A stretch of 64,000 nt of DNA from Candidatus Enterousia sp. (GCA_045133095.1 JBGUTP010000016.1:76758-140757), one strand, 5' to 3'; shown: positions 3,112-53,484, numbered from the stretch's first letter. Notes: generated by a model not told the origin, from the letters alone. Numbers and translations: made by a program.

Positions 3112-3205
3112 AAAAATCCCCCCGAAAATAAAATTCTTTATTATCATACTATTTTTCTGTTGAATTACAAATTATTTTTGCTTAATATTGGAACACAAAA
3201 GTTTA

Positions 3206-19471: not shown

Positions 19472-19768
19472 ATGAAACAGCAAGTATTAAAAGCATTGGC
19501 AAACCCTTCGCACATTTTTTATGTGCCTTATTCGTTAGCCATACTTAATTTTGCCGTGCAGTTTATTATTTTTATGGTCTTGTTTGTTGTGTCGCTGGTT
19601 GCAACAAAGGGAAGTAAGCCATTATCACCGCTGGTTTTCTTGCTGTCGGTTATTGTGGTGCATTCGATAATTGCAATCTTTTCAAAGCGTGACCCACAAT
19701 TGGGGCAGATTGTGACCGCTAAGTTACAATTGTTTAAAAAGAAAATACCAGGAAAATTAGCAGCATGA
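19472..19768 (+). CDS. Type IV secretion protein VirB3/TrbD-like
   Basis: A 98-aa protein with two TM segments. Its stop overlaps the virB4 start, as in trbD-trbE/virB3-virB4 operons. Confidence 0.55.
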   Translation: MKQQVLKALANPSHIFYVPYSLAILNFAVQFIIFMVLFVVSLVATKGSKPLSPLVFLLSVIVVHSIIAIFSKRDPQLGQIVTAKLQLFKKKIPGKLAA

Positions 19769-30943: not shown

Positions 30944-30951
30944 TATAAAAA

Positions 30952-32586
30952 ATGGCCAAGGAAAAAGAAGTCTTTGAAAATGTTGTAACAACAGATAAAC
31001 CGTCTGTTCCGGCGGGGTTGGAAAACGCAGAGTCAAAAGATATTATCGATTATTTGTTCGCTAATGGAAACAGGTTGCAGACCGCAACAGGGGCGCCATT
31101 GGAACTGCCGCATGATACGCAGGGGTTGGTTGCATATTTTACCGGTGGTGAAGTTATTATTTCCAGAACACACAGATATGATGGACGTGTGTTGGCGTTC
31201 TTGGATTTGTTGAAAAGACGTGGACGTGTTGTAAGACAGCCTTTTTATTCTGATTTAGGATTGATTTCAAATATCTATAAAACATACGAGATGAGATTAG
31301 GGGGTGGGGCGCGTTCTCGTGTGGATTTTGATAATCAAATGCAAAAGGACTTTGTCGATATTATCGCAAAGGCAGCAGCGCAAAAAGTATCTGATGTACA
31401 CGTAGAGGTCGCAGACCAGACAACTATATATTTTCGTATCGATGGCAGTATGCAGCCGGTGTTGGAATATAATTCACAGTGGGGTGAATCTTTCCTGCGT
31501 GCGGCGTTCGCATCGTCGGATATTTCTAATGCTAACTATGCGGTAAACGAATATCAATCAGCACAGAAAGACGGACGAACACCACTGCGTGGAACCAAGG
31601 ATTTATATTTGCCGTCGGGGGTGCTGGGGGTGCGTATGCAATTCAACCCGATTGCGTTTGGTACACGCTATGCGGTGATGCGATTGCTGTATGATAATCC
31701 GTCCGAAGGAATAAAAATCGAACAAGAGTTCGGACCGTATGAACAAAAAATGCTGGCAAGAATGCGGTCGTTCCCAACAGGATTGGTTATTGTCGCAGGT
31801 CCAACAAGTTCAGGTAAATCAACGACGTTAGTGCGCAATATGTCCTTGATGCTGAAAGAGCGCAATTATGAAATTAATATGATTACTGTGGAAAACCCAG
31901 TAGAACAAAAAATATTTGGCGCACGACAGATGCCAGTTGTTAATACGACTAATGAAGAACAGCGTGAAGAAAAATATGTAGAAGCATTGGCAGCAGCGTT
32001 AAGAAGTGACCCTGATACGTTGATGGTCGGAGAAATTCGTACACTTGCCGCAGCACAGTTGACCGTGCGTGGGGCGTTGTCTGGGCATAATGTGTGGACG
32101 ACGTTGCATGCTAATTCTGCAATGGCGGCGTTGACAAGATTGCTGGATTTGGGAATCGAACCGTTCAAATTAAAAGAAGAAACACTGATGCGTGGGTTGG
32201 TGTCAATGCGACTGTTTAAAAAAGTTTGCCCACATTGCCGTGAACCGTTGATGAATCATCCAGAACGTGGGGCATATCGTCGCGTGATGGATGCATATGG
32301 TGAATTAGGATTAAGACAGGTTTATCAACGTGGCGCAGGATGCAGTCATTGCAAAGGTTCAGGACATATGGGGCGTATCAAAGCAGGCGAGATTATTATT
32401 ACTAATAGTGAATTTTTGAGATTGGCTTTGTCCGGGAATACAGATGCGGCGGTGCGGTACTGGATGGAAGAAATGGATGGACGCACGTTAAAAGAAGCCG
32501 CGGCGGCGTTGATGCTGAAAGGAGTGGTGGATATTGACGAACTGGAAAGATGGGTCGGGTATGTTGATGAACCGGGGGCGTACTGA
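30952..32586 (+). CDS. GspE/PilB/TcpT-family secretion ATPase with tetracysteine zinc finger
   Basis: Walker A VAGPTSSGKSTT, Asp box, Walker B LMVGEIR, His box GHNVWTTLHANSA and a CPHC...CSHC motif. The N-terminal roughly 150 aa is atypical. Confidence 0.85.
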   Translation: MAKEKEVFENVVTTDKPSVPAGLENAESKDIIDYLFANGNRLQTATGAPLELPHDTQGLVAYFTGGEVIISRTHRYDGRVLAFLDLLKRRGRVVRQPFYSDLGLISNIYKTYEMRLGGGARSRVDFDNQMQKDFVDIIAKAAAQKVSDVHVEVADQTTIYFRIDGSMQPVLEYNSQWGESFLRAAFASSDISNANYAVNEYQSAQKDGRTPLRGTKDLYLPSGVLGVRMQFNPIAFGTRYAVMRLLYDNPSEGIKIEQEFGPYEQKMLARMRSFPTGLVIVAGPTSSGKSTTLVRNMSLMLKERNYEINMITVENPVEQKIFGARQMPVVNTTNEEQREEKYVEALAAALRSDPDTLMVGEIRTLAAAQLTVRGALSGHNVWTTLHANSAMAALTRLLDLGIEPFKLKEETLMRGLVSMRLFKKVCPHCREPLMNHPERGAYRRVMDAYGELGLRQVYQRGAGCSHCKGSGHMGRIKAGEIIITNSEFLRLALSGNTDAAVRYWMEEMDGRTLKEAAAALMLKGVVDIDELERWVGYVDEPGAY

Positions 32587-32588
32587 AG

Positions 32589-33659
32589 ATGAATAAATTG
32601 GAATTGTGGTATGCTAAATTAGTCTTTCGGTTAAATACTGAAAAACGTATGGCGATTTGCAGAAAATTGGCTTCGTTGTTGCGGAATGATTTTACGCTGA
32701 TTAATGCGTTGGAACGTTTAGAGATGATTGAATCAAAAAACGGTACAAAGCCAAATGAACCATACGCAATTGCTATGCGTGAATGGCAAAAAAGCCTGGA
32801 ACGAGGTATGAGTTTTTCAGATGCAACGCGTGGTTGGGTGCCACCAGAAGAAACACTGTTGGTGACATCAGGTAATTTGTCTAGTTTGGTTGTTGCACTT
32901 GAAAACGTCGGACGCGTCGTAGATGGAACACAGCGTATCAGACGTGCAATGACAACCGCAGTGGCGTATCCTTTGTTCTTGTTAGCGTTGACGTTCGGAA
33001 TCATTATTATGGTTGGGGTTTATCTGGTGCCGCCATTGGCAGAAGTTGCAGGGTCGCAAATTGTATGGCAGGGAACAGCCCGGTCTTTGATATGGGTGTC
33101 TGATATTTCAATAAAATACTGGTATTGGTTCTTGGTGGTTTTTGCAGGTGTCGTTGGGATTATATGGTTGTCTTTGCCAAGATGGTCCGGGCAGCTGAGG
33201 GCAAAATTTGATAAGTTGCCACCGTGGAGCGTTTATAAAATTCAGGTGTCAGTTGGGTGGCTGATGTCGTTGGCGGCAATGGTGAAAACAGGGGTTACAA
33301 TCCCAGATGCTATGCGTATGTTGGCAGATAATGCCAATCGATATCTAAGAAATATATTGGAATCTGCACTGAGGTTTATTGCTAATGGTGATAACTTGGG
33401 GGTGGCGTTGACACACACAAAGCGTAATTTCCCCGATGATGATATTATTGGCGATATTACTATTTACGCAGATATGAATGAATTTGATGATAATTTAAAC
33501 CAGGTCGCAAATGATTATCTTGAAGAGTCTGTACGTAAAATGGAAAAAATTTCTGATACTTTGAACAGTTTGGGGATTTTGCTGGTGTCCGCGATAATTG
33601 CGTGGGTGGTGCTGGGGACGTTCCAGATGCAAGACCAGATTACAAGTGCGCTGTCGTAG
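32589..33659 (+). CDS. GspF/PilC/TcpE-like inner-membrane platform protein
   Basis: A 356-aa protein with two cytoplasmic helical repeats and three TM segments. It carries the AYPLFLLALTFGIIIMVGVYLVPPL (AYPxxxL...P) signature of GspF-family proteins. Confidence 0.7.
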   Translation: MNKLELWYAKLVFRLNTEKRMAICRKLASLLRNDFTLINALERLEMIESKNGTKPNEPYAIAMREWQKSLERGMSFSDATRGWVPPEETLLVTSGNLSSLVVALENVGRVVDGTQRIRRAMTTAVAYPLFLLALTFGIIIMVGVYLVPPLAEVAGSQIVWQGTARSLIWVSDISIKYWYWFLVVFAGVVGIIWLSLPRWSGQLRAKFDKLPPWSVYKIQVSVGWLMSLAAMVKTGVTIPDAMRMLADNANRYLRNILESALRFIANGDNLGVALTHTKRNFPDDDIIGDITIYADMNEFDDNLNQVANDYLEESVRKMEKISDTLNSLGILLVSAIIAWVVLGTFQMQDQITSALS

Positions 33660-33754: not shown

Positions 33755-33775
33755 TTTTTGTTTTTTTTTTTTTTT
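33755..33775. repeat. Homopolymeric T tract (T5 G T15)
   Basis: Seen directly in the convergent intergenic region. Confidence 0.8.
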
Positions 33776-33800: not shown

Positions 33801-34370
33801 TTATACCATAAATGGCAGGTTTTCCAGTGTGCCTTCGGCAACGCGGACGTTGACGTCAATCATCATGAAAACAGAATCCGGTGTGCATTGCGCGTGTTCG
33901 GCAAATAGATTGGAATCCAGCAAGTGACTGGTGTTAACAGATAATTTTGTTATCAGGTGGTCGTCGTCTAGCAATGTGTAAATAGGACCAATGTCACGTG
34001 GAGTGTTAGAGCCTATTTCGTGTTCGTTTTGTGGACAACGCAGACCGTCCATTATCGTTTTTACGCGATTGTCAATGTCAGAACGTGGAACACCAACAAT
34101 TTCAGGATGTAACATTTGAATGTCCAGTTCCGCTATTAATTTCAGGTTCGGTGTGATTATTGGATTCCAATCAATGCCACCAACGTGACGGGTGGTAATA
34201 GGGCTTTTGGTCGGGTTGGGTACCATGTACTGGGTCAGGTTGTTCCATGGACTGTGTTCAATTAATTTCTTTAATTGTGGGTGAAATTGCATCCGTATGT
34301 CGGCAATGTGTTGTGCGCGCTTTTTAGGATTAATCAAAATATCGCCAAAATATAATAATTTAAATTTCAT
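33801..34370 (-). CDS. Hypothetical protein (189 aa), coupled to the upstream HTH gene
   Basis: The start ATG lies 1 nt after the stop of the upstream small ORF, with AAAAAGG as SD. I recognise no family. Confidence 0.35.
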   Translation of the reverse strand: MKFKLLYFGDILINPKKRAQHIADIRMQFHPQLKKLIEHSPWNNLTQYMVPNPTKSPITTRHVGGIDWNPIITPNLKLIAELDIQMLHPEIVGVPRSDIDNRVKTIMDGLRCPQNEHEIGSNTPRDIGPIYTLLDDDHLITKLSVNTSHLLDSNLFAEHAQCTPDSVFMMIDVNVRVAEGTLENLPFMV

Positions 34371-34371
34371 G

Positions 34372-37146
<2,775 letters not shown>

Positions 37147-39250: not shown

Positions 39251-39817
39251 CTAGAAACTGTATGTCAGACCTGCGCCGAAAAACGCGTATGAATTATTTT
39301 CAGGTGCGGTGTTGCCGTTGGAATAATGCTGGGCAAATAATTCAAGGTGGGTACATTCAGATAATCTGTAGCCACTGCCCAGTTTGAAACCGAATAGCAA
39401 TTTTGAACCAATGCGTTCGTTCTGTTGCGCTTGGAAACCGACAGATGCGCCCGTATAAAAATACCAACCGTGACCACTTGCCAGGATTACGTCTTCGGAT
39501 ATGGTTATGATGGGTATTGTGTATTTATCCCAATGCCATCCGCGTGATGTGCCAAAACCAAGTGTCTGGGTCACGTTTAATGATTTGCGTGCCGGCAGAC
39601 GGAAAAATTCAGTGGGTTGAGAATACTGGACGTTAAGCATCGTGAATGGTACCCAACGAACAGGCGCAGGGATTAAAAAACCACTGTCCACGCCCCAGCC
39701 AAAATTGACCGCAACTTGATTTTCATAGCCATTAAAAAATGGGTTTGTGTCCGCCCAGGCAGTTGCCGAAACAGATGAAATAATAAAAGCAGTTATGATT
39801 TTTTTCATAGGGTCCAT
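39251..39817 (-). CDS. Small outer-membrane beta-barrel, PagL-like (lipid A deacylase family?)
   Basis: Signal peptide, a terminal Phe (LTYSF) and a conserved H-x-S-N-G motif (QHYSNGN) as in PagL. Confidence 0.3.
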   Translation of the reverse strand: MDPMKKIITAFIISSVSATAWADTNPFFNGYENQVAVNFGWGVDSGFLIPAPVRWVPFTMLNVQYSQPTEFFRLPARKSLNVTQTLGFGTSRGWHWDKYTIPIITISEDVILASGHGWYFYTGASVGFQAQQNERIGSKLLFGFKLGSGYRLSECTHLELFAQHYSNGNTAPENNSYAFFGAGLTYSF

Positions 39818-39905
39818 GATATCATAAAAGAAGAACGTCTGCAATAGAGTTTATTAAAAACAATAATAATTGTAAATATGAATAAAATCACGCATGTTGT
39901 TTTTC

Positions 39906-44240: not shown

Positions 44241-45320
44241 ATGGCAAAAAAAGAAGCAGCAAAAGATAGTGGGCTGTTTGGAAAAAATCCAGCGTTGGAA
44301 TCTGCGTTGGCACAAATTCAAAAACAGTTTGGTAAAGAAGCCATTATGAAAATGGGTGATGGTTCACAGCAAAATATCGAAGCGATTTCATCGGGTTCGT
44401 TGGGGCTGGATATTGCGTTGGGAATTGGTGGTTATCCAAAGGGACGTATCGTTGAAATCTATGGACCAGAATCTTCGGGTAAGACAACGTTGGCGTTGCA
44501 TGCGGTTGCGGAATCTCAGAAAAAGGGTGGTACGTGTGCGTATATTGATGCAGAAAATGCACTGGACCCAAGTTATGCAAAAAAGTTAGGGGTGGATGTT
44601 GCTAACTTGATTATTTCACAGCCAGATTCCGGTGAACAGGCATTGGAAATCGCAGATACGCTGATTAAATCAGGCGCGGTTGATGTTGTCGTTATTGACA
44701 GTGTGGCGGCATTGGTGCCAAAGGCAGAATTAGAAGGTAATATTGGGGATTCGTTCGTTGGAACAACTGCACGTTTGATGTCGCAGTCGCTGAAAAAATT
44801 GGCGGGTTCGGTTTCACGCAGTAATACATTGCTTATCTTTATCAATCAAATTCGTATGAAGATTGGTGTGATGTTTGGAAACCCAGAAACAACATCAGGG
44901 GGCAATGCGTTAAAGTTCTATGCGTCGGTGCGTCTTGATATCCGTCGTACAGGACAAATTAAGGATAAAGAAAATATCATCGGTAATGAAACACGTGTCA
45001 AGGTTGTGAAAAATAAGGTCGCGCCACCTTTCCGTACAGTTGACTTTAAGATTATGTACGGCGAAGGTATTAGCCGTATCAGTGAAATCTTGGATATGGG
45101 CGTTAAATACGACTTGATTGAAAAGGCAGGCAGTTTCTATTCTTATAACAGTGAAAGAATGGGGCAGGGTGAAGCGAATGCGCGTCAATGGTTGAAGGAC
45201 CATCCAGAGGCGCAGGAAGAACTGCTGAATAAAATCATGGCGCGGGCATCGGGAATCGCCGAAGAAATGACGACCGGTCCGATTGATGATGAAGATGATG
45301 TGGCAGAAATTGTCGAATGA
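44241..45320 (+). CDS. recA: Recombinase RecA
   Basis: [12 protein letters not shown], loops L1/L2 and canonical RecA sequence throughout. Confidence 0.95.
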
Positions 45321-45375
45321 TTTTGTCCCCCAGTTTAGTTTCTGGGGGTAATTTGTTAAAAAAAAGGAAGAAAGT

Positions 45376-46272
45376 ATGAATGTACAACGTATGTGGGCAA
45401 TGACAAAAATAATCGTTCAGGGACATGTGTTAAACTGGTTCTGGCGTGACAGAAAACACAGACGCGAAGTGCGCAGCAAGGTCATAGAACGTGTAATCCC
45501 AAAATACTTTGAAAGATATTTGCCAGCCGCAGCCGCAGTAAAAGAACGCAAGGTCGTTAATAACGATAAAAACGACAAGATTTTTTCACTGTGGTTGCAA
45601 GGTGAAGAAAATGCACCAGAGTTGGTGAAGTCTTGTTTTCGCAGTGTGCGCAGACATTGTAAACAAGAATTGGTTGTTTTGGACGAAAAGACCGTGTTTG
45701 ATTATATTACTCTGCCAGAAGAAATTATGAAAAAGCGCAAAGCGGGTAAGATTTCACATGCGCACTTTGCGGATATTTGTCGGGTGGAATTGTTGTATAA
45801 TCATGGCGGGTATTGGCTGGATTCAACAGGGTTTGTGACCGAAGCCATTCCTGATTGGATTGAAAAAGAAGATTTCTTTGTTTATATGGCAGGGCAAAAG
45901 GTCGGCAGCCCATACAGTTATATGCAAAATTGTTTTATTCGTTCGCGAAAGGGGGCATATCTGCTGGATGCGTGGCGGGCGATGATGTTGGATTACTGGA
46001 TGCATGAAAACGGACCGTTTGATTATTTTATGCATCAATTGTTGTTCAAGACAATGGTTATGAATGATGAACGTGCAAAAAAACACTTTGCAAAAATGCC
46101 ACACGTTGACCAAGACCCGACACATGCACTGTGGTGGGATTGGCATGATAAGCCATACGATGAAAAAAAATTCCGTGAAGTAACAAGTGGGGCTTTCTTT
46201 CAAAAGACAACTTATCATCAGGCGAAAAATCCAAAGCCGGGTTCTGTGGCAGAAGCAATGTTGAAGATGTAA
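45376..46272 (+). CDS. Glycosyltransferase, GT32/Caps_synth-like (OCH1-type DXD sugar transferase)
   Basis: Motifs IFSLWLQGEENAP and HFADICRVELLYNHGGYWLDS are typical of the Gly_transf_sug/capsule synthesis family. Confidence 0.5.
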   Translation: MNVQRMWAMTKIIVQGHVLNWFWRDRKHRREVRSKVIERVIPKYFERYLPAAAAVKERKVVNNDKNDKIFSLWLQGEENAPELVKSCFRSVRRHCKQELVVLDEKTVFDYITLPEEIMKKRKAGKISHAHFADICRVELLYNHGGYWLDSTGFVTEAIPDWIEKEDFFVYMAGQKVGSPYSYMQNCFIRSRKGAYLLDAWRAMMLDYWMHENGPFDYFMHQLLFKTMVMNDERAKKHFAKMPHVDQDPTHALWWDWHDKPYDEKKFREVTSGAFFQKTTYHQAKNPKPGSVAEAMLKM

Positions 46273-46285
46273 AAAAGGATTTTCT

Positions 46286-47059
46286 ATGCCAGTGGTGTCA
46301 GTCATTATTCCTGTGTATAAGGTGGAAAAATATCTGCGACGTTGCCTGGACAGTTTAATCGCCCAGACTTTTGCAGATTGGCAGGCAATTTGTATCGATG
46401 ATGGCAGCCCAGATAGGTCGCCGGCGATACTGGATGAATATGCCGCACGTGATGCAAGAATTAAGGTTATTCACAGGGCAAATGGTGGGGTGTCGTCTGC
46501 GCGAAATCTGGGAATAGAAAATGCAAGTGGAAATTATATTCATTTCTTGGATGCAGATGATTGGATTGACCCAGAATATTATCAGGCAATGGTAACGGTT
46601 GCCACGGATTCAGATGCAGATATGGTAGTGTCTGGGTTCGTCAGTGATAATAAATATACTAAACCTATTGTTTATCGTGATGTTAAATTAAAACGTAAGA
46701 TTGCCGATAAGTTGCGGTTGACATATGCTTTGACTGATTCTTATGTGTGGCGGTATTTGTTTAAAACAGATTTTGTGCGTACAAAAAAATTATTGTTTGA
46801 TACAAATTTAATCGCACAGGAAGATACTTTGTTTGTGTTAAACGCAATTGCAGATGCGAATGCAATTGTGACCGTGCCGTGGGTTAATTATCATTATATG
46901 TTTAATGAAAATTCAGCCTTGAATAATCGTGACGCGGCGCATCATGCAAAGGTTAAAGCGCAATATAAAATAGGTAAACAATATAGACGTGATTTCGCAA
47001 AACAACACGGTGTGATAAGACTGTGGAGATTGCGTAAAATATTAAACTTATTCAGATAA
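46286..47059 (+). CDS. Family 2 glycosyltransferase
   Basis: VSVIIPVYKVEKYLRRCLDSLIAQTF...DDGSPD...DADD is the GT2 N-terminal signature. Confidence 0.75.
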   Translation: MPVVSVIIPVYKVEKYLRRCLDSLIAQTFADWQAICIDDGSPDRSPAILDEYAARDARIKVIHRANGGVSSARNLGIENASGNYIHFLDADDWIDPEYYQAMVTVATDSDADMVVSGFVSDNKYTKPIVYRDVKLKRKIADKLRLTYALTDSYVWRYLFKTDFVRTKKLLFDTNLIAQEDTLFVLNAIADANAIVTVPWVNYHYMFNENSALNNRDAAHHAKVKAQYKIGKQYRRDFAKQHGVIRLWRLRKILNLFR

Positions 47060-47074
47060 ACATAGGGGGATATA

Positions 47075-48103
47075 ATGCCAGCAATTTCTGTAATTATTCC
47101 AATTTATAATGTCGAAAAGTATCTGCGCAGATGTTTGGATAGTGTAAAAAATCAAACATTTACAGACTGGGAGGCGATTTGTGTAAATGACGGCAGCCCT
47201 GATAACTGTGCAGAGATATTGGCAGAATATGCCGCCAAGGACGCTAGATTTAAAATAGTTAATAAGGAAAATGGTGGACTGTCCGATGCGCGAAATGCAG
47301 GTATGAAGGTCGCAACAGGTGAATATATTTTATACCTGGATAGCGATGATTTTATCCATCCGCAAACAATGGAAATTACACATGTGCTGGCGGTGCGTGA
47401 TGGGTCCGATATGGTGGCGTTTACATACGACAGAATTTATCGACCGCAACTGATGATACGGCATTATCTGAAAATGGATACAGATAACGTTGTGCCAAGG
47501 AGGTTGAATAAAAAATATAAACTGTCAAATGTGCCAACGTTGGTAACTGATGATGTTTATGAGTATGCAACAGAAAAAACACATAATCGGTGGAGTAAGA
47601 AAAAAAAGTGGATGATTAAACATTGTCAGGTGTGGAAGCATTTGTATAAACGTGAACTGATTGCAGATATTCCGTTTATCAAAGGGATTTTGTTCGAGGA
47701 CTTTCCATGGTGGAGTCAGGTTATGATGTCTAATCCACGTGTGACAATTACTAATTTGCCTTTGTATTTCTATATACCGAATTTTGGTGGGATTGTATTA
47801 AGTGCCAAGCAATTGCGCATTATGAAAAGTTTGTGCGTAGGTTTAAAAGATGCATATACGCGATATGTTCATGCAGCAACGCCATATCAAATGAAAAAAT
47901 GGTCGGAAAATTTTCAGTGGTATTTTGTCGCCAAGGCGTTTGGAAAGATTAAATATCTTGATGGAAATGATGATGTAGATGCGGCACGAGAATGTTTGCG
48001 CGAACTGGAACATATGGGGGCGTTAGATAAGCCACCGTATAAGTGGGCAAAAAAACTGCGCAGTCAGATTTGTGCTTTTATTAAAACATGTAGGGTTGAA
48101 TAG
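47075..48103 (+). CDS. Family 2 glycosyltransferase (paralog)
   Basis: ISVIIPIYNVEKYLRRCLDSVKNQTF...NDGSPD...DSDD. It is a paralog of the preceding gene. Confidence 0.75.
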   Translation: MPAISVIIPIYNVEKYLRRCLDSVKNQTFTDWEAICVNDGSPDNCAEILAEYAAKDARFKIVNKENGGLSDARNAGMKVATGEYILYLDSDDFIHPQTMEITHVLAVRDGSDMVAFTYDRIYRPQLMIRHYLKMDTDNVVPRRLNKKYKLSNVPTLVTDDVYEYATEKTHNRWSKKKKWMIKHCQVWKHLYKRELIADIPFIKGILFEDFPWWSQVMMSNPRVTITNLPLYFYIPNFGGIVLSAKQLRIMKSLCVGLKDAYTRYVHAATPYQMKKWSENFQWYFVAKAFGKIKYLDGNDDVDAARECLRELEHMGALDKPPYKWAKKLRSQICAFIKTCRVE

Positions 48104-48150
48104 TAGGTACGTGGTTAGTGAATGTGTGCGGCAAATGCCGCACATTTTTA

Positions 48151-49164
48151 TTATTTTTCAAATTGACTTTTGTTCGGAAAACGTTCGCGCATAAATTTTG
48201 CGTTGTTTTCAAGAATTGTATCGTCTGTGTCGCGAGAATCGTTTATGCAAAACGTTGGGGCGCCAAGTAATGCACGACGTGCCGCAACAGTGTCAGAACA
48301 AACAACCGGTGAATTGTGTATCCATGGCGCAAAAATAGTGTTGTAAATTGCGTTTATTATTTTATGACGTGTGAATTTGCGGGCGCGGCTGTGGATGAAT
48401 TTCGCGCGACCCGTGATTAAATCATACAGGTTGAACATCCAACGTTGAACTTCGGTGTTTGTGCGGAATTTGTTATATTTTTGTGCCTCGATTTGTGGCG
48501 CAATATCAGGGTGTGAAATACATTCTGACCATGATGATTTTATGTATGGGTCAATGCCGTGTGATGGGCGATATTTGTAAACCTTTTTGCCGTAAACTCG
48601 GTCGATGAATTCGGCGGACAATATTAATGTTTGGTTGTATTCGTCAACCTGAGTTTTCCATGTTTTTATGTCACGACTGTGGCGGGAATGATTGCTGAAC
48701 CGAATAAGGGCGCGACCACGGGAATCATAAAAGAAACTTGGGGTCAGCGGGCGATTGAAAAATATGTCATCATTCATTAATAAAAAGTGTTCTGATAATC
48801 CAGGGATGTTTGGGATGCACATTTCAATGGCGGTCGCGTTAAATGTTGGCAGGGCGTCCGATGGAAATATCTGTTCGTGTGGAACAATTGTGATTTTTGG
48901 GTGTTTGGTATTCAACCATTTTGGAATCTGACCAAAGCCGGTGATAATGTAAATGTGATTTACCCAAGGGGCAAATTGTTCAACACTGCGCAGAGAATAA
49001 AGTAATTCGCCATTGTCGCGCCAGCGTGCCTCTATGGCGGCATCGTTATAGACAGGTTTTTCACCCTTGACGATTTCCAACCATTTATCTTTCTGGGTGC
49101 GCCACTTTTTGTCGCCACCATCAACCCACAGGTAAACTAAATCTATTTTTTTTGGTGTCGCCAT
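48151..49164 (-). CDS. Stealth-family capsular polysaccharide hexose-1-phosphate transferase
   Basis: Stealth CR1 (IDLVYLWVDGGDKKW) and CR2 (ELLYSLRSVEQFAPWVNHIYIITGFGQIP) motifs. Confidence 0.6.
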   Translation of the reverse strand: MATPKKIDLVYLWVDGGDKKWRTQKDKWLEIVKGEKPVYNDAAIEARWRDNGELLYSLRSVEQFAPWVNHIYIITGFGQIPKWLNTKHPKITIVPHEQIFPSDALPTFNATAIEMCIPNIPGLSEHFLLMNDDIFFNRPLTPSFFYDSRGRALIRFSNHSRHSRDIKTWKTQVDEYNQTLILSAEFIDRVYGKKVYKYRPSHGIDPYIKSSWSECISHPDIAPQIEAQKYNKFRTNTEVQRWMFNLYDLITGRAKFIHSRARKFTRHKIINAIYNTIFAPWIHNSPVVCSDTVAARRALLGAPTFCINDSRDTDDTILENNAKFMRERFPNKSQFEK

Positions 49165-49168
49165 AATT

Positions 49169-50011
49169 TTAAACCCCTGATTTTTGAAAACGGTTTGGAA
49201 TTTTTACAACGCGTTTTATCCCCAGCATGCCGGGTTTATCCCACGCATAGATTGGACGGAAAATACGCTGCATAATGCGGGCTATCCTTAGCCATCGTTC
49301 GTCGCGCGCCCGACGGTTGGTCACATCGTTGATTGTCCCGTTGCCACGACGACGTAAGTGGTTTACCCAGTCGGGACCACGAGATGCCGCCTTGGATACC
49401 AGCATGTCCATGTCAACCGCGCCAAAATGTAATAAATATAAATTAGGGTCAATGTGGAAATTGTGACCGTTTATGCTGTGAAACCCGCTGCCCCAGCGGA
49501 CAGGGCGGTTAATTACAACCGGTTTGGTATAGCGTGTGGATAGTAGGGCGTATGAACGCTGAGTCAGGAATGGTTTAGATGTGTCAAGTGGTTCTTCGTG
49601 TGTTAAGTGCTGGCCCACGTCCAGACCCAGACCAGATAGGGTGGTGTTGATTTCTTTGTTTGATAAATATTCAGATAAAGACGTGTTCAGGTCAGGGTCC
49701 ACAATTAAAAATTCATCACAGTCACAACCAATAACAATGTCATAGTCTTTTAATAAATGCGCCGCAAGGTCGGACATTTTGTTGATTCTGTATTTGTCGC
49801 CCGCAGCACGTGACATGTCAGTGTGGGGTAATTTTGTGATGTGGGCAGTATCCGCGTTTTCAGGGATGTCTTGGTCGGTCCCATCAAGGTATATGTATAA
49901 ATTGTCAGTGCCAATTTCGCGACCATAATATTCAATCCAGCGGGATAGAAAAAATGTGTCGTTTCGTGCCATCGTTATCGCGGCAATACGTTTTAAATTC
50001 TGTGTTTTCAT
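49169..50011 (-). CDS. GT-A fold glycosyltransferase (DxD), family uncertain
   Basis: AAITMARNDTFFLSRWIEYY...IYLDGTDQD...CDCDEFLIVDP. It has a DXD-like acidic motif and GT-A-like layout. Confidence 0.4.
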   Translation of the reverse strand: MKTQNLKRIAAITMARNDTFFLSRWIEYYGREIGTDNLYIYLDGTDQDIPENADTAHITKLPHTDMSRAAGDKYRINKMSDLAAHLLKDYDIVIGCDCDEFLIVDPDLNTSLSEYLSNKEINTTLSGLGLDVGQHLTHEEPLDTSKPFLTQRSYALLSTRYTKPVVINRPVRWGSGFHSINGHNFHIDPNLYLLHFGAVDMDMLVSKAASRGPDWVNHLRRRGNGTINDVTNRRARDERWLRIARIMQRIFRPIYAWDKPGMLGIKRVVKIPNRFQKSGV

Positions 50012-50856
50012 AATTTTCCCGTAAGTATTTTTTTTGTTGTGTGTTTTAATTGCCTGAAAAATATTTTTAATGGGTTTGTGGTTAATAACCAGTTTAGGTA
50101 TTTGTCGCCGTATTGCATCTGGGCAGAAAGTGTAATGGCAATGCGTGTGTCATCGTCAACATGGTTTAGTACATACAGAATCTGTCGCCCAAGTGAACCA
50201 TAGTGACGCGTAAATGCCAGTTTTTTCATAAATGGCATTTCGGCAATATATAATTTTTTTACCTGATTATAAATGCCGCGGTTTTTTACCGTATAGAGGC
50301 ACTTCCATGTCAGATTGTGTGCCAAAATCTTTTTTGATAAGCCGTGTTCATATTGACGGGTTATTTGACCCTTGGATGCAAGTTTTGTAACAGAACGAAT
50401 AAAAGTGTCGTACCAATTCGATAAAAATATACTGGGGCGCAGACCTATGAACCAAGATTGAATATGTGGGTGGTCTGTGTTTGGATTCTTGACCATTCCA
50501 AATCCGTCGGTCCCCATGTTTTCCATGCGTTCCAGATATGGCGCAATGTCGTATAATGGACCATATACAGAATCGTTGACCATATAAACATAGTCATAGT
50601 CAGAAAGATTTAGATTTTCAGTTGCCCATACGTATGCGCGTTTGTAAGAACCAAAATCATATTCGCCATGACGCACGCCATGCGCATAAAGTGTGATTTT
50701 GTTCAGTTTCTGTAATTCGGATTTTGGACAGTCTGAATCCATAAAAACAATAACGTCGCCAGATTGACTGAGTGCGCGAACATAATAAACCAGGGCAGGG
50801 TCAATCGTGCCATTTTTATCATAGCCCGCAAATAAAAATAAACGCTTGGGTTTCAT
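50008..50856 (-). CDS. RgpF/rhamnan-synthesis-F-like polysaccharide biosynthesis protein
   Basis: The N-terminus LFLFAGYDKNGTIDPALVYYVRAL matches the RgpF-family pattern FxxYDxxGxIDxxxxYY. Confidence 0.4.
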   Translation of the reverse strand: MKPKRLFLFAGYDKNGTIDPALVYYVRALSQSGDVIVFMDSDCPKSELQKLNKITLYAHGVRHGEYDFGSYKRAYVWATENLNLSDYDYVYMVNDSVYGPLYDIAPYLERMENMGTDGFGMVKNPNTDHPHIQSWFIGLRPSIFLSNWYDTFIRSVTKLASKGQITRQYEHGLSKKILAHNLTWKCLYTVKNRGIYNQVKKLYIAEMPFMKKLAFTRHYGSLGRQILYVLNHVDDDTRIAITLSAQMQYGDKYLNWLLTTNPLKIFFRQLKHTTKKILTGKL

Positions 50857-50941
50857 ATCTTATAATTTACATGTTTTTTCTTGTTTTTGCAACTAATCAC
50901 TTTATAGCCAAAAAGAACACGCCACAGGTGTGGCGTGCGGA

Positions 50942-52774
50942 TTATTCTTCGATGTGTTTTTTCAGTTTTTTACGTGTGTTGCTGTCCAATTCTTTCTTGC
51001 GCAGACGAATTGTGTCGGGGGTAACTTCGACCAGTTCGTCGTCCAGGATATAGGACAGGGCTTCTTCCAGCGAGATACGACGTGGTGGCGCCAAGAATAA
51101 CTTTTCGTCGGCGGTGACCGAACGCATGTTTGTTAATTCTTTGCCCTTGATTGGGTTGACTTCCAAATCGTTTTCTTTGCTGTGTTCACCTATAATCATA
51201 CCAGAATAAACTTCGGTTTGGGGTTCAATGAACAATGTGCCACGTGGTTGCAGATTAAACAGTGCGTATGTGGCGGCACTGCCTTTTTCCATTGATACCA
51301 AGACCCCTGGGCGGTATTGCTGAATCGCACCACGATAAAGGTCGTATTTATCAAATACACGGTTCATGATACCTGTGCCGCGGGTGTCGGTGCGGAATTC
51401 TGATAGGTAACCAATCAGACCACGTGATGGGGCGGAAAATACAATGCGTGTTTTGCCGGCGCCACTTGCCTTCATTTCGGTAATTGTGGCCTTGCGCTTG
51501 GTCATTTTTTCAATTACGACACCAGAAAATTCGTCATCTACGTCGATTACAACATCTTCGATTGGTTCCAGTTTGTTTCCGTTTTCGTCTGTCTGCATCA
51601 CAACGCGTGGGCGGGATACAGACAGTTCAAATCCTTCGCGGCGCATTGTTTCAATTAAAATCCCCAATTGTAATTCGCCACGACCAGAAACTTCGAATGC
51701 TTCGTTGTTTTCGCTTTGTTCAACACGCAGGGCGATGTTTGTTTCGGCTTCTTTGAACAGGCGTTCGCCAATCATGCGTGATGTTAATTTTTTACCACTT
51801 TTGCCCGCCAAGGGTGATGTGTTTACAAAGAATGTCATGGTCAGGGTTGGTGGGTCAATCGGCATGGCAGGAATTGGTTCGGAAACGCTTGGGTCGCACA
51901 GAGTGTCCGCCACAGTTGCTTTGGAAAAACCTGCCACAACAACAATGTCACCAGCAGATGCAGTGTCGCGTGAAATCTTTTCAACGCCACGGTGTTCGAT
52001 GATTTTTGTAATTTTTGCATTTTCGATAAATTCGCCGTTGCGATTGATTGCCTTGACTGATTGACCAACACGGACAGTGCCTGATTCAATTTTGCCGGTC
52101 AGAATGCGACCAACGTATGGGTCCGCTTCTAGTGTGGTTGCCAACATTGTAAATGGTGCATCTAATTGACAGCGACTGCCATTGCAATCTGGGGCGGGAA
52201 CATGGTCAACAATTAGTTGGAACAATGGGGTTAAATCTTTGCGTTCATCATTTAAATCGCGTACCGCCCAACCATCACGGCCGACCGAATACAAGTATGG
52301 AAAATCAAGTTGAGAATCCGTCGCACCCAATTTATCAAACAAGTCAAATGTTTCAGACAAAACTTCGTCTGGGCGGGCGTCGGAACGGTCGATTTTGTTA
52401 ATGCATACAATCGGACGCAGCCCCAGTTTTAATGCCTTGGATAATACGAATTTAGTTTGGGGCAGGGGACCTTCGGAACTGTCCACCAATAATACAACGC
52501 CGTCAACCATGGACAGGATTCGTTCAACTTCGCCGCCAAAGTCCGCGTGACCCGGTGTGTCAACGATGTTAATTTTGTATTCGCCCCATTGGATAGACGT
52601 TGGTTTTGCGGAAATGGTAATGCCGCGTTCGCGTTCGATGTCGCCGCTGTCCATGACGCGGTCGTCAATTTTTTCGTTTTCGCGGAATGTTCCCGCCTGT
52701 TTCAGCATGTTGTCAACCAGTGTCGTCTTGCCGTGGTCAACGTGTGCGATAATTGCTATGTTGCGAATTTTCAT
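50942..52774 (-). CDS. typA: Translational GTPase TypA/BipA
   Basis: IRNIAIIAHVDHGKTTLVD, DTPGHADF, NKID and an EF-G-like domain series. The start was set at MKIRNIAII. Confidence 0.9.
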   Translation of the reverse strand: MKIRNIAIIAHVDHGKTTLVDNMLKQAGTFRENEKIDDRVMDSGDIERERGITISAKPTSIQWGEYKINIVDTPGHADFGGEVERILSMVDGVVLLVDSSEGPLPQTKFVLSKALKLGLRPIVCINKIDRSDARPDEVLSETFDLFDKLGATDSQLDFPYLYSVGRDGWAVRDLNDERKDLTPLFQLIVDHVPAPDCNGSRCQLDAPFTMLATTLEADPYVGRILTGKIESGTVRVGQSVKAINRNGEFIENAKITKIIEHRGVEKISRDTASAGDIVVVAGFSKATVADTLCDPSVSEPIPAMPIDPPTLTMTFFVNTSPLAGKSGKKLTSRMIGERLFKEAETNIALRVEQSENNEAFEVSGRGELQLGILIETMRREGFELSVSRPRVVMQTDENGNKLEPIEDVVIDVDDEFSGVVIEKMTKRKATITEMKASGAGKTRIVFSAPSRGLIGYLSEFRTDTRGTGIMNRVFDKYDLYRGAIQQYRPGVLVSMEKGSAATYALFNLQPRGTLFIEPQTEVYSGMIIGEHSKENDLEVNPIKGKELTNMRSVTADEKLFLAPPRRISLEEALSYILDDELVEVTPDTIRLRKKELDSNTRKKLKKHIEE

Positions 52775-52920
52775 GTTTTGCCCCACTTTATTTTGTTTAA
52801 TCGGGTACAGGGTATAATTAATTAAATGAATTTTCAACTTTTTTTATATCAAATATTGACGTTTTGTAAAATTTGTCTATATTAGTGGTGTGAGTTTGAT
52901 AGAAATAAAAGGAGTTCGAT

Positions 52921-53484
52921 ATGACAAAGAAGATTACAGAGCATGAAGTGCGTGTGGCAATTGAGAATGGATTTAAAAGTCTGTATGAGTTGGCACGTTT
53001 AAAGGTTAAGGGTAACTGGGATAAGTGTGATTTGTCGCAAAAGTATAATGCGGGGCGTGGACTGGTTCGTATGTGCGATGTCGCAAAGAATCCGAGTGAG
53101 AATTTTTCACGTGCAACAACAGCGGCAGCGTGGAAACAGAGGGTTTCAGATTGGGCAGCAAAAAACGATGTTCCGGCAGAACAGGCGTGGAATGGATACT
53201 ATATTGTTCAGGACCCAGCAAGTGTGGTTATGCAAAAAATTACCCCTGTGTTTCATGTGTTGAAGGATGGTGATATGTACTGTCAGATTGCACGCTTTTT
53301 CAGTTTGGTTCAAAAATGGGAATATGGACATACGTCACAAAAAGCAGCAGACAGATATGCCGCGCAGGGGGTGGCGGATGCTTTGATTATGTGTTCCGCG
53401 GATTTGAAAAAGCAGTTGGATATTAAAAAATGTAATCCGATATTGCGTCCGGTTAAATCATTTCTGTATCAGATTCAAAGATAA
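52921..53484 (+). CDS. Hypothetical protein (187 aa)
   Basis: A clean ORF with an SD. I recognise no family. Confidence 0.35.
   Translation: MTKKITEHEVRVAIENGFKSLYELARLKVKGNWDKCDLSQKYNAGRGLVRMCDVAKNPSENFSRATTAAAWKQRVSDWAAKNDVPAEQAWNGYYIVQDPASVVMQKITPVFHVLKDGDMYCQIARFFSLVQKWEYGHTSQKAADRYAAQGVADALIMCSADLKKQLDIKKCNPILRPVKSFLYQIQR

What the first reader, a model, noticed from the sequence alone, without database searches (positions are those of the whole stretch)
45376..50856. Six-gene polysaccharide-modification cluster with a Stealth phosphotransferase between recA and typA
Seen in sequence: the cluster encodes a GT32/OCH1-like enzyme, two paralogous GT2 enzymes (about 60% similar over the N-terminal half), a Stealth CR1/CR2 protein, a GT-A DxD enzyme and an RgpF-like protein. 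They lie in two convergent transcription units.

Established knowledge: Stealth proteins make sugar-1-phosphate (phosphodiester) linkages in capsules, as in Neisseria serogroup A and X. RgpF-type enzymes build rhamnan-like polymers.

No nucleotide-sugar synthesis, flippase (wzx) or polymerase (wzy) gene is present. This suggests decoration of an existing glycan, or a host-mimicking phosphoglycan. It is a likely accessory and variable locus.
Basis: partly seen in the sequence, partly recalled or inferred. Interest (0 to 1): 0.5.

Follow-up and report, generated by a model that had tools for sequence, protein, structure and literature searches.

The report
Conserved glycosyltransferase locus with Stealth phosphotransferase
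Between recA and typA, an uncultured Alphaproteobacteria MAG lineage (related contigs come partly from ruminant-gut MAG sets) carries six real sugar-adding enzyme genes, one of them a Stealth sugar-1-phosphate transferase; the set most likely builds a short, variable surface sugar chain and is an ordinary kind of locus.

Summary
The Stealth protein passes the CR1 and CR2 models. It also keeps the CR3 arginine and the CR4 CIND motif. It matches solved Stealth enzymes (GNPTAB, M. tuberculosis CpsY) at about E 1e-32.

The "accessory locus" reading is only partly right. The recA–typA position and a five-gene core recur in six other distinct syntenic relatives whose recA is 92–99% identical, and GC content matches the genome. 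Gene content does vary. GT2a is present or absent, a GT61 or a 209-aa gene sits next to typA in some relatives, and one relative has a GT4 gene where Stealth would be. The enzymes diverge far faster (53–92% identity) than the flanking genes, and in a mosaic pattern.

All six proteins are soluble and basic. No initiating transferase, flippase, polymerase, exporter or sugar-nucleotide gene was found in the 64-kb window.

The best reading is sequential assembly of a short phospho-oligosaccharide on a lipid-linked acceptor, most like the Acinetobacter LOS outer-core locus. The 337-aa Stealth would add a single hexose(NAc)-1-phosphate. This is a new member of a known kind, of low to moderate interest.

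The parts
45327..45348 (+). Terminator-like hairpin after recA, which separates recA from unit A
   Evidence: CCCCCAGTTTAGTTTCTGGGGG followed by a T-containing tail. The sequence was read.
45376..46272 (+). g1: Caps_synth / GT32-like glycosyltransferase (298 aa), first gene of unit A
   Evidence: PF05704 at 220 bits and PF04488 at 25.2 bits (cutoff 23). A Shine-Dalgarno-like AAGGAAG precedes the ATG. The GGxWLDxT motif is invariant in six orthologues. No TM segment; pI 9.3.
46286..47059 (+). g2: GT2 glycosyltransferase 'GT2a' (257 aa), a variable gene present only in some relatives
   Evidence: PF00535 at 135 bits. It shares 52% identity with g3 over residues 1-131. Full-length orthologues occur only in L081, L088 and L093.
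47075..48103 (+). g3: GT2 glycosyltransferase 'GT2b' (342 aa), a core gene
   Evidence: PF00535 at 130 bits. PDB sequence hits are GT2 enzymes such as chondroitin synthase and GalT1. Orthologues at 71-82% identity are present in every recA-linked relative.
48124..48145 (+). Terminator-like hairpin in the 47-nt convergent gap between g3 and g4
   Evidence: GTGTGCGGCAAATGCCGCACAT followed by TTTTTATTATT. The sequence was read. The T-tract is convincing only for the + unit.
48151..49164 (-). g4: Stealth-family hexose(NAc)-1-phosphate transferase (337 aa), last gene of unit B
   Evidence: CR1 and CR2 are above their cutoffs. GNPTAB catalytic domain 7s6n at 5e-33 and CpsY 8j2n at 1.6e-32, with R234 aligned to CpsY R419. 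I7 D8 V10 Y11 W13 V14 D15, R49 D50 N51, D132 D133, F233 R234 and C306 N308 D309 are invariant in 46 homologues. No TM segment; pI 9.4.
49169..50011 (-). g5: Glyco_tranf_2_4-family glycosyltransferase (280 aa), the most conserved gene of the cluster
   Evidence: PF13704 at 47 bits; 2361 homologues, with the top 120 all at least 88% identical. D97-x-D99-E100 is invariant. The AF2 model is unusable (pLDDT 49).
50008..50856 (-). g6: short RgpF-family GT-A glycosyltransferase (282 aa), first gene of unit B; its stop overlaps the g5 start by 4 nt
   Evidence: PF05045 at 59 bits, model positions 2-223 of 503. AF2 pLDDT 95. GT-A fold with only distant PDB neighbours (TM 0.39-0.47). N94 D95 S96 is invariant. 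It is the fastest-diverging gene (53-82% identity).
50917..50938 (-). Terminator-like hairpin directly after the typA stop codon, which separates typA from unit B
   Evidence: GCACGCCACACCTGTGGCGTGT followed by TCTTTTTGG. The sequence was read.
44241..45320 (+). recA, the conserved left flank (context, not part of the pathway)
   Evidence: It is 92-99% identical in syntenic relatives.
50942..52837 (-). typA/BipA GTPase, the conserved right flank (context). The true start is probably the ATG at MKIRNIAII, about 21 codons inside the listed ORF.
   Evidence: Pfam families for the orthologues are given. It is 89-97% identical in relatives.

Best explanation
This is a chromosomal, vertically inherited surface-glycan assembly locus made only of transferases. 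It belongs to an uncultured Alphaproteobacteria lineage that makes lipid A.

The six soluble, basic enzymes probably sit on the cytoplasmic face of the inner membrane. There they would extend a lipid-linked acceptor that is started elsewhere, using common UDP-sugars. Five of them are glycosyltransferases: one GT32-like, two GT2, one GT2_4-type and one RgpF-type GT-A enzyme. Together they would make up to five glycosidic bonds. The sixth, the 337-aa core-only Stealth enzyme, would transfer one hexose- or HexNAc-1-phosphate from a UDP-sugar onto a sugar hydroxyl. That creates a single phosphodiester bridge or branch.

The acceptor I think most likely is lipid A-core. On that reading this is an LOS/LPS outer-core-type locus. 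Its product would be flipped by MsbA and exported by Lpt, as with the Acinetobacter baumannii outer-core locus (OCL).

Shown here: gene presence, family membership, intact Stealth motifs, lack of TM segments, conserved synteny, variable content and mosaic divergence.

Inferred: the donor sugars, the acceptor, the order of the steps and the final location of the product.
For: 1. All six family assignments pass curated Pfam cutoffs.

2. The Stealth hallmarks listed in PMC10668966 are present and invariant in 46 homologues. These are the CR1 IDxVYxW motif, CR2, the CR3 Arg and the CR4 CIND motif.

3. The size and CR layout of g4 are CR1 6-30, CR2 47-150, CR3 around residue 234 and CR4 304-337. 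They match the single-addition Stealth protein 20D of the H. parainfluenzae strain 20 O-unit (CR1 5-16, CR2 40-139, CR3 223-271, CR4 308-343). That paper likens 20D to WfgC, which is predicted to make alpha-GlcNAc-1-P-6-Glc (PMC3989065).

4. No TM segment was found in any of the six proteins, and pI is 9.1-9.5. Both are typical of peripheral GTs that act on lipid-linked acceptors (established knowledge).

5. No PGT, wzx, wzy, ABC-exporter or sugar-nucleotide gene is in the cluster or among the scanned ORFs of the 64-kb window. The lipid A genes lpxK and lpxC and a PagL-like gene are present in the window.

6. The locus sits between the same two housekeeping genes in many relatives. It has a conserved core plus variable slots and fast, mosaic divergence.

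7. The A. baumannii OCL has the same overall design: a GT-only locus between conserved ilvE and aspS, with conserved and variable regions. It also draws on the same families: GtrOC7 is Stealth CR1/CR2, GtrOC27 and GtrOC33 are Caps_synth plus Gly_transf_sug, and GtrOC3 is GT2 plus GT2_4 (PMC10327509).
Against: No chemistry, expression data or mutant exists for this lineage.

I could not screen the rest of the genome for waaL, wzx/wzy, wzm/wzt, kpsMT or a PGT. A split O-antigen or capsule pathway is therefore not excluded.

No core heptosyl- or Kdo-transferase gene is next to the cluster.

The OCL analogy rests on architecture and shared Pfam families, not on orthology. I had no GtrOC sequences to compare.

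Most related loci were retrieved through Stealth or g5 homology, which biases the sample toward presence of the core. The only close relative retrieved independently (L001, found through recA) lacks Stealth.

The g5 structure prediction failed, so its fold rests on the Pfam hit and the conserved DxD motif alone.
Confidence: 0.5

Rival explanations
1. The six enzymes build the repeat unit of a Und-PP-linked O-antigen or Wzy- or ABC-dependent polysaccharide. The initiating phosphoglycosyltransferase, flippase, polymerase, ligase or exporter would be encoded elsewhere in the genome (a split locus). Stealth would insert one phosphodiester per repeat.
For: Short Stealth proteins of the same size and CR layout do exactly this in the H. 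parainfluenzae strain 20 and E. coli O152 O-units (PMC3989065). Six transferases suit a penta- or hexasaccharide repeat. A more distant Stealth homologue (63% identity) sits in a typical O-antigen/capsule-style cluster with an aminotransferase, acetyltransferases, a GT2 and ACP/KAS III genes (L086).
Against: No PGT, wzx, wzy, wzz, waaL or wzm/wzt gene lies within the 64-kb window or within 8-10 kb of the cluster in any of ten related loci. Repeat-unit loci usually keep at least the flippase and polymerase with the GTs (established knowledge).
Confidence: 0.28
2. g4 is a processive capsule polymerase of the Neisseria serogroup A/X type (CsaB/CsxA-like). It would make a poly-hexosamine-1-phosphate capsule that is exported by an ABC transporter encoded elsewhere. 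This is the Stealth precedent the reader cited.
For: g4 belongs to the same enzyme family. Stealth capsule polymerases and hexose-phosphate polymer capsules are well established in group 2 capsule systems (PMC5974469).
Against: g4 is a 337-aa core that runs only from CR1 to CR4, with no extra N- or C-terminal domains. From memory, not tested here, the capsule polymerases are about 480-550 aa. No kpsMT/ctrABCD or kpsCS genes are in the window. Five other transferases are co-conserved with g4, which a homopolymer would not need.
Confidence: 0.07
3. The cluster glycosylates something other than LPS or capsule, for example a pilin, an outer-membrane or S-layer protein, or a periplasmic or cell-wall glycan.
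For: Type IV pilus/T2SS-like and VirB4-like genes lie in the same window at 19.7-33.7 kb. The acceptor is unknown. GNPTAB, the eukaryotic Stealth enzyme, acts on glycoprotein glycans (PMC9388126, listed).
Against: There is no oligosaccharyltransferase (PglB/PglL/PilO-type) and no target gene adjacent to the cluster. The pilus genes are more than 11 kb away, and I did not see them linked to the cluster in the relatives examined.
Confidence: 0.08
4. One reading: a recently acquired accessory island, variable between strains, inserted between recA and typA.
For: Gene content differs between relatives. L001 has a GT4 in place of Stealth and lacks GT2a. GT61 or a 209-aa gene is present in some relatives. 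In Rhodobacteraceae the recA-typA interval holds no GTs.
Against: The same position and the same five-gene core occur in relatives down to recA 92% and Stealth 63% identity. Cluster GC is 41.2% against 41.9% for the window. No integrase, transposase, tRNA or repeat boundary was seen at the cluster edges. The tRNA genes in the window lie well outside 44-53 kb.
Confidence: 0.05

Closest known systems
Acinetobacter baumannii LOS outer-core locus (OCL; gtrOC genes between ilvE and aspS)
   Same: The locus consists almost entirely of glycosyltransferase genes and lies between two conserved housekeeping genes. It has a conserved part and variable slots, and no wzx or wzy. It draws on the same Pfam families: Stealth CR1/CR2 (GtrOC7), Caps_synth plus Gly_transf_sug (GtrOC27, GtrOC33) and GT2 plus GT2_4 (GtrOC3) (PMC10327509).
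   Different: The phylum, flanking genes, gene order and transcription layout (two convergent units) all differ. No GT25, Mito_fiss_Elm1 or polysaccharide deacetylase genes are present here. Orthology was not tested. Whether this lineage lacks WaaL and an O-antigen is unknown.
Single-addition Stealth phosphotransferases of O-antigen repeat units (H. parainfluenzae strain 20 protein 20D; WfgC of E. coli O152 / S. dysenteriae 12)
   Same: Proteins of about 340 aa that consist only of CR1-CR4, with nearly identical CR positions. They are predicted to form one sugar-1-P-sugar phosphodiester per unit (PMC3989065).
   Different: Those genes sit in Wzy-dependent O-antigen loci alongside flippase and polymerase genes, whereas none is near g4.
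Mycobacterium tuberculosis CpsY catalytic core (PDB 8j2n) and the GNPTAB catalytic domain (PDB 7s6n/7sj2)
   Same: There is significant sequence homology (E 1.6e-32 and 5e-33). The CR1-CR4 motifs are conserved, including the Arg equivalent to CpsY R419. The expected chemistry is UDP-HexNAc-dependent sugar-1-phosphate transfer.
   Different: CpsY carries an extra 200-residue N-terminal part, and GNPTAB has large spacer, Notch and DMAP domains plus TM anchors. g4 has none of these. The acceptors (glucan, or Man on lysosomal enzymes) are unrelated to anything inferable here.
Neisseria meningitidis serogroup A/X Stealth capsule polymerases (CsaB/SacB, CsxA)
   Same: Same enzyme family and the same bond type (hexosamine-1-phosphate phosphodiester).
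   Different: Those enzymes are processive polymerases within ABC-transporter capsule loci. g4 is a minimal core in a GT-only locus with five co-conserved transferases and no transporter in the window.
RgpF rhamnosyltransferase of streptococcal and lactococcal rhamnan synthesis
   Same: g6 exceeds the Pfam PF05045 threshold and has a GT-A fold.
   Different: g6 covers only the N-terminal 44% of the RgpF model. There are no rmlABCD, rgpA/B or rgpCD genes here, and the host is Gram-negative. PMC9574508 notes that even a bona fide RgpF may transfer Glc rather than Rha in S. thermophilus, so rhamnose cannot be assumed.

Membership tests
Stealth protein family (hexose-1-phosphate transferases) | CR1: N-terminal IDVVYTF-like motif | tested here: met
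   PF17101 scores 34.3 bits against a cutoff of 27.2. The sequence is KIDLVYLWVDG. I7 D8 V10 Y11 W13 V14 D15 are invariant in 46 homologues. The motif definition comes from PMC10668966.
Stealth protein family (hexose-1-phosphate transferases) | CR2: a conserved region of about 100 residues | tested here: met
   PF11380 scores 139 bits against a cutoff of 39.4 and covers 104 of 108 model positions. It aligns to GNPTAB and CpsY.
Stealth protein family (hexose-1-phosphate transferases) | CR3 with the strictly conserved arginine (CpsY R419) | tested here: met
   There is no Pfam CR3 hit. However, in the phmmer alignment to 8j2n, R234 of g4 falls on chain residue 219, which is R419 if the construct starts at residue 201. 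F233 and R234 are invariant in 46 homologues. This was met by alignment, not by the HMM.
Stealth protein family (hexose-1-phosphate transferases) | CR4 with the CLND/CIND tetrapeptide | tested here: met
   C306-I-N308-D309 is present, and C, N and D are invariant. The PF17103 HMM scores only 21.2 bits, below its cutoff of 27.4. The motif is met but the HMM is sub-threshold.
Stealth protein family (hexose-1-phosphate transferases) | Transfers sugar-1-phosphate from a UDP-sugar to form a phosphodiester | not testable with these tools
   This needs an enzyme assay.
GT2 (Glycos_transf_2) - g2 and g3 | PF00535 GT-A domain with a DxD motif | tested here: met
   135 and 130 bits against a cutoff of 23.3. 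The sequences show LDADD in g2 and LDSDD in g3.
Caps_synth / GT32-like - g1 | PF05704 and the PF04488 sugar-binding region | tested here: met
   220 bits (cutoff 24.5) and 25.2 bits (cutoff 23). The motif reads GGYWLDST, so the second Asp of a canonical DxD is Thr. This is invariant in six orthologues.
Glyco_tranf_2_4 GT-A - g5 | PF13704 domain, DxD motif and GT-A fold | tested here: inconclusive
   The Pfam hit is met (47 bits against 27.5), and D97-C-D99-E100 is invariant. The fold was not confirmed: the AF2 model reached only pLDDT 49 because the alignment was shallow.
RgpF (rhamnan synthesis protein F) - g6 | Full-length PF05045 match | tested here: not met
   The score is above threshold (59.3 against 25), but only model positions 2-223 of 503 are covered. 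The whole 282-aa family in this lineage is short.
RgpF (rhamnan synthesis protein F) - g6 | Operates with a dTDP-L-rhamnose supply (rmlABCD) and RgpA/B plus the RgpCD transporter | tested here: not met
   None of these is in the window or in the related loci. The rest of the genome was not examined. The pathway description comes from PMC9574508.
LOS outer-core locus of the A. baumannii OCL type | A locus made (almost) only of glycosyltransferase genes between conserved housekeeping genes | tested here: met
   Six of six genes are transferases. recA and typA flank the locus in the window and in seven other distinct syntenic relatives, including L001.
LOS outer-core locus of the A. baumannii OCL type | A conserved region plus variable regions that define types | tested here: met
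   The core is g1, g3, g4, g5 and g6. The variable elements are GT2a, GT61, a 209-aa gene, and GT4 in place of Stealth.
LOS outer-core locus of the A. baumannii OCL type | The organism lacks WaaL and an O-antigen, and mutations in the locus truncate LOS | not testable with these tools
   This needs whole genomes plus LOS gels or mass spectrometry.
Group 2 (ABC-transporter) capsule locus | kpsMT/ctrABCD export genes and kpsCS next to the polymerase gene | tested here: not met
   No such domain was found in the window or in the flanks of ten related loci.

The most novel reading that the evidence does not exclude
The conserved trio RgpF-like / GT2_4 / minimal Stealth stays together next to typA even where the recA-side genes are absent (L082, L087). 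The most novel reading is that the trio is a self-contained module. It would install a HexNAc-1-phosphate-capped epitope on the LOS of these animal-gut Alphaproteobacteria. Such a cap would have the same bond type as the GlcNAc-1-P-Man intermediate that host GNPTAB makes, so it could act as host mimicry or as a ligand for host lectins or uncovering enzymes. A variant of this reading is that the three enzymes together polymerise a new teichoic-acid-like oligosaccharide-phosphate polymer.
Probability: 0.08. Interest if true: 0.6.

Novelty: new member of a known kind. Interest (0 to 1): 0.25.

Why it matters
The result gives a concrete, testable handle on the surface chemistry of a common but uncultured group of Alphaproteobacteria, some of whose related contigs come from ruminant-gut MAG sets. 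There is a single small locus, in a fixed chromosomal position, with a phosphodiester-forming enzyme and a few variable slots. Like the Acinetobacter OCL, it could serve as a typing marker for the lineage. It also predicts that the envelope carries a sugar-1-phosphate-linked residue. Mechanistically it adds nothing new to what is known about Stealth enzymes or GT-only glycan loci.

Tried and rejected
1. AF2 model of g5. The only admissible homologues were at least 88% identical (plus one at 72%). The model reached pLDDT 49 and is unusable, so no fold search was run.

2. PDB sequence searches for g1, g5 and g6 found nothing significant.

3. The Foldseek search of the good g6 model found only generic GT-A neighbours (TM 0.39-0.47), so it gives no specificity clue.

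4. NCBIfam gave no equivalog for any of the six genes. The GT2 hits (best PRK10073, about 127 bits against a cutoff of 423) are far below threshold.

5. Phase variation was considered. The cluster has no homopolymer longer than 8 nt and no short tandem repeat. A8/T8 tracts are common throughout this AT-rich window. Rejected.

6. Recent horizontal acquisition was considered and rejected on GC content and synteny.

7. An ancient glycan hotspot between recA and typA across Alphaproteobacteria was considered. In a Rhodobacteraceae genome the interval holds one 918-aa ORF and no GTs. Rejected.

8. P0002 (574 aa) was checked as a possible Stealth fusion with a partner enzyme. It is a partial plus a complete Stealth copy in tandem, not a fusion with g5.

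9. The ORF on the opposite strand at 45823-46305 (160 aa) lies wholly inside g1/g2 and was treated as spurious.

Full report
**What is in the sequence**

| Gene | Coordinates | Length | Pfam result |
|---|---|---|---|
| g1 | 45376-46272 (+) | 298 aa | Caps_synth PF05704, 220 bits; Gly_transf_sug PF04488, 25.2 bits (cutoff 23) |
| g2 | 46286-47059 (+) | 257 aa | GT2 PF00535, 135 bits |
| g3 | 47075-48103 (+) | 342 aa | GT2 PF00535, 130 bits |
| g4 | 48151-49164 (-) | 337 aa | Stealth_CR2 139 bits (cutoff 39.4); Stealth_CR1 34.3 bits (cutoff 27.2) |
| g5 | 49169-50011 (-) | 280 aa | Glyco_tranf_2_4, 47 bits (cutoff 27.5) |
| g6 | 50008-50856 (-) | 282 aa | RgpF PF05045, 59.3 bits (cutoff 25), model positions 2-223 of 503 only |

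NCBIfam offers no equivalog for any of the six. g2 and g3 are paralogues only in their nucleotide-binding halves, with 52% identity and 70% positives over residues 1-131 and nothing beyond.

The genes form two tightly packed convergent units. Gaps within the units are -4 to 16 nt. recA lies upstream of one unit and typA upstream of the other. Terminator-like hairpins lie after recA (45327-45348), in the 47-nt convergent gap (48124-48145) and directly after the typA stop (50938-50917).

**The Stealth protein**

The Pfam CR3 model did not hit g4, and CR4 scored below its threshold (21.2 bits against 27.4). The family hallmarks described for CpsY are nevertheless all present. Those hallmarks are a CR1 IDVVYTF-like motif, a CR2 of about 100 residues, a strictly conserved CR3 arginine (R419) and a CR4 CLND/CIND tetrapeptide (PMC10668966).
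- g4 reads KIDLVYLWVDG at residues 6-16.
- R234 aligns with CpsY R419 in the phmmer alignment to PDB 8j2n.
- C306-I-N-D309 is present.

In an alignment of 46 homologues at 59-85% identity, the following are invariant: I7 D8 V10 Y11 W13 V14 D15, R49 D50 N51, D132 D133, F233 R234 and C306 N308 D309. The solved relatives are the GNPTAB catalytic domain (7s6n, E 5e-33) and M. tuberculosis CpsY (8j2n, E 1.6e-32). g4 is therefore an intact, minimal Stealth enzyme that runs from CR1 to CR4 with no accessory domains.

**The other enzymes**

None of the six proteins has a hydrophobic segment that could span a membrane (maximum Kyte-Doolittle 19-residue mean below 1.6). All are basic, with pI 9.1-9.5.

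An AlphaFold model of g6, built on 46 homologues, is confident (pLDDT 95, pTM 0.92). It has a GT-A fold, but its nearest solved structures are only generic GT-A enzymes: 3cgx, the A. fumigatus galactofuranosyltransferase 8yrl, BoGT6a and glycogenin, at TM 0.39-0.47.

g5 has an invariant D97-x-D99-E100 motif. Its model failed (pLDDT 49) because every admissible homologue but one was at least 88% identical. g1 carries an invariant GGxWLDxT motif.

**The organism and the window**

The best recA matches among species-representative genomes are uncultured Alphaproteobacteria MAGs, at 94% identity for L001 and 72% for the next. Several related contigs come from MAG or metagenome sets, some labelled XIEF21. 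From memory, not checked, that label refers to a ruminant gastrointestinal MAG study.

The 64-kb window is ordinary chromosome. It carries pheST, mreC/PBP2/rodA, topA, dnaG, ychF, gyrB, serS and trxB. It also carries the lipid A genes lpxK and lpxC, a PagL-like deacylase, and pilus/secretion ATPase genes. No sugar-nucleotide enzyme, initiating phosphoglycosyltransferase, Wzx, Wzy, WaaL or polysaccharide ABC exporter was found among the ORFs of at least 150 aa that were scanned.

**Is the locus accessory?**

Related loci were fetched in three ways: through recA (L001), through Stealth homologues (L082-L090) and through g5 homologues (L091-L093).

| Locus or loci | Arrangement |
|---|---|
| Window, L081, L088, L093 | All six genes between MFS-recA and typA |
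| L084/85, L089, L090 | No GT2a; an extra GT61 gene next to typA |
| L091/92 | No GT2a; a 209-aa gene of unknown function next to typA |
| L001 | Has g1, g3, g5 and g6; a 380-aa GT4 (Glycos_transf_1) gene replaces Stealth |
| L082/83, L087 | typA-RgpF-GT2_4-Stealth kept, but different genes follow and recA is not adjacent |

In a Rhodobacteraceae genome where recA and typA are also near each other, the interval holds a single 918-aa ORF and no transferases.

Across the syntenic relatives, recA is 92-99% and typA 89-97% identical to the window. The cluster proteins are much more diverged:

| Gene | Identity to the window |
|---|---|
| g1 | 64-92% |
| g3 | 71-82% |
| g4 | 63-82% |
| g5 | 72-90% |
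| g6 | 53-82% |

The rankings also disagree between genes. L091 is 90% identical for g5 but 64% for g1, and L088 is 88% for g1 but 63% for g6. Cluster GC is 41.2%, against 41.9% for the window, where 5.5-kb windows have a standard deviation of 1.8%.

The locus is therefore old in this lineage and fixed in position. It is fast-evolving, apparently mosaic, and has a few gene-content slots. It is neither a recently acquired island nor a universally identical core operon.

There is one caveat. Loci fetched through Stealth or g5 homology are biased toward carrying the core. The one close relative found independently (L001, through recA) lacks Stealth.

**How it most likely works**

The facts established here are:
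- six cytoplasmic, basic, non-membrane transferases;
- no initiation, flipping, polymerisation, ligation, export or precursor genes nearby;
- a lipid A-producing Gram-negative host;
- a fixed position between housekeeping genes;
- a conserved part plus variable slots.

This is the design of a lipooligosaccharide outer-core locus. In Acinetobacter baumannii the OCL lies between the conserved ilvE and aspS genes and consists predominantly of glycosyltransferase genes. It has common and variable regions. It uses the same families seen here: GtrOC7 carries Stealth CR1/CR2, GtrOC27 and GtrOC33 carry Caps_synth plus Gly_transf_sug, and GtrOC3 carries GT2 plus Glyco_tranf_2_4 (PMC10327509).

The size and CR layout of g4 match the single-addition Stealth protein 20D of the H. 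parainfluenzae strain 20 O-unit (CR1 5-16, CR2 40-139, CR3 223-271, CR4 308-343). That paper likens 20D to WfgC of E. coli O152, which is predicted to form alpha-GlcNAc-1-P-6-Glc (PMC3989065).

I therefore infer that five glycosidic bonds and one phosphodiester are added stepwise to a lipid-linked acceptor, most likely lipid A-core, from common UDP-sugars. The product would then be flipped and exported by general machinery. The donors, the acceptor, the order of steps and the destination are all inferred, not shown.

g5 is the most conserved enzyme: the top 120 of its 2361 homologues are at least 88% identical. g6 is the least conserved. This would fit g5 making an inner, invariant linkage and g6 a more exposed one, but that is speculation.

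**Rivals**

- **Split O-antigen or capsule repeat-unit pathway.** This remains quite possible, at about 0.28, because I could not examine whole genomes. Short Stealth enzymes are known from such units, and a 63%-identical Stealth sits in an O-antigen-style cluster in another MAG (L086).
- **Neisseria-type Stealth capsule polymerase.** This is unlikely. g4 is a minimal core, five other transferases are co-conserved with it, and no kps/ctr genes are nearby.
- **Protein or other glycan targets.** These cannot be excluded, but nothing points to them.
- **Rhamnan synthesis, from the RgpF label.** This is not supported. Only the N-terminal 44% of the model is matched and there are no rml or rgp genes. 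Even bona fide RgpF homologues may transfer glucose (PMC9574508).

**Novelty and verdict**

Public annotation already names these proteins 'Stealth CR1 domain-containing protein', 'rhamnan synthesis F family protein' and 'glycosyltransferase family 2 protein' in Alphaproteobacteria MAGs. The kind of locus is well known. What is specific to this case is:
- the lineage;
- the fixed recA-typA position;
- the conserved RgpF-like/GT2_4/Stealth trio;
- the pattern of variation.

It is a new member of a known kind. Interest is low to moderate, because it gives a typing marker and a testable prediction of a phosphodiester-linked sugar on the envelope of an uncultured gut lineage.

Noticed in passing
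window 1-64000 (composition profile): GC skew (G-C)/(G+C) on the + strand is strongly positive and sustained, about 0.2-0.37 over most of 9-48 kb. Cumulative skew rises almost monotonically across nearly the whole window. The skew drops to 0.04-0.09 at 49-53 kb, where genes are on the - strand. The magnitude is unusually large for a bacterial chromosome.
   Followed up: no
window 52921-53484 (+): A 187-aa basic ORF with no Pfam hit lies between typA and serS. It keeps its position in relatives but is only 31-35% identical there, while the flanking typA and serS are 79-97% identical. It is a very fast-evolving small protein next to the glycan locus.
   Followed up: partly
P0002 (ENA contig, 15.9 kb): A relative encodes a 574-aa ORF made of a partial Stealth copy followed by a complete one (59% identical to g4). 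This suggests a tandem Stealth duplication, or two fused genes.
   Followed up: partly
L086 10001-17094 (GCA_045647355.1): A 63%-identical Stealth gene lies in a quite different cluster. That cluster has a DegT-type aminotransferase, two hexapeptide acyltransferases, a GT2, a KAS III, an ACP, a short-chain dehydrogenase and a 4'-phosphopantetheinyl transferase. This suggests an N-acylated amino-sugar phosphoglycan.
   Followed up: no
L001 8771-9913 (+): In the closest species-representative genome, a 380-aa GT4 (Glycos_transf_1) gene on the + strand occupies the place that GT2a and Stealth hold in the window. This is a clean example of gene replacement inside the locus.
   Followed up: yes
L084 7061-8254, L089 5014-6210, L090 5057-6256; L091 6133-6762: The slot between typA and the RgpF-like gene is empty in the window (85 nt). 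In three relatives it holds a GT61-family gene of about 398 aa, and in another a 209-aa gene with no Pfam hit.
   Followed up: partly
window 33761-33775: A T15 homopolymer, the longest simple tract in the window, lies in the intergenic region between the T2SSF-like gene (ends 33659) and a 228-aa ORF on the - strand (33801-34487) that has no Pfam hit.
   Followed up: no
window 19765-25228 and 29023-33659: There is a VirB4/TrbE-like ATPase (809 aa) followed by ORFs with no Pfam hit, including one of 572 aa. Separately there is a pilus/T2SS-like set: a weak PilO-like hit, a T2SSE ATPase and a T2SSF platform protein. These sit next to DUF374-lpxK-lpxC.
   Followed up: no
window 39251-39844 (-): A PagL-like lipid A 3-O-deacylase domain (33 bits) is present. 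It hints that lipid A is remodelled in this organism, which is relevant background for any LOS model.
   Followed up: no
window 567-1952 and 1771-3147 (-): The listed HlyD-family and outer-membrane efflux (OEP) ORFs overlap by about 180 nt. The true start of the downstream HlyD-family gene (567-1952, GTG) is probably later than listed.
   Followed up: no
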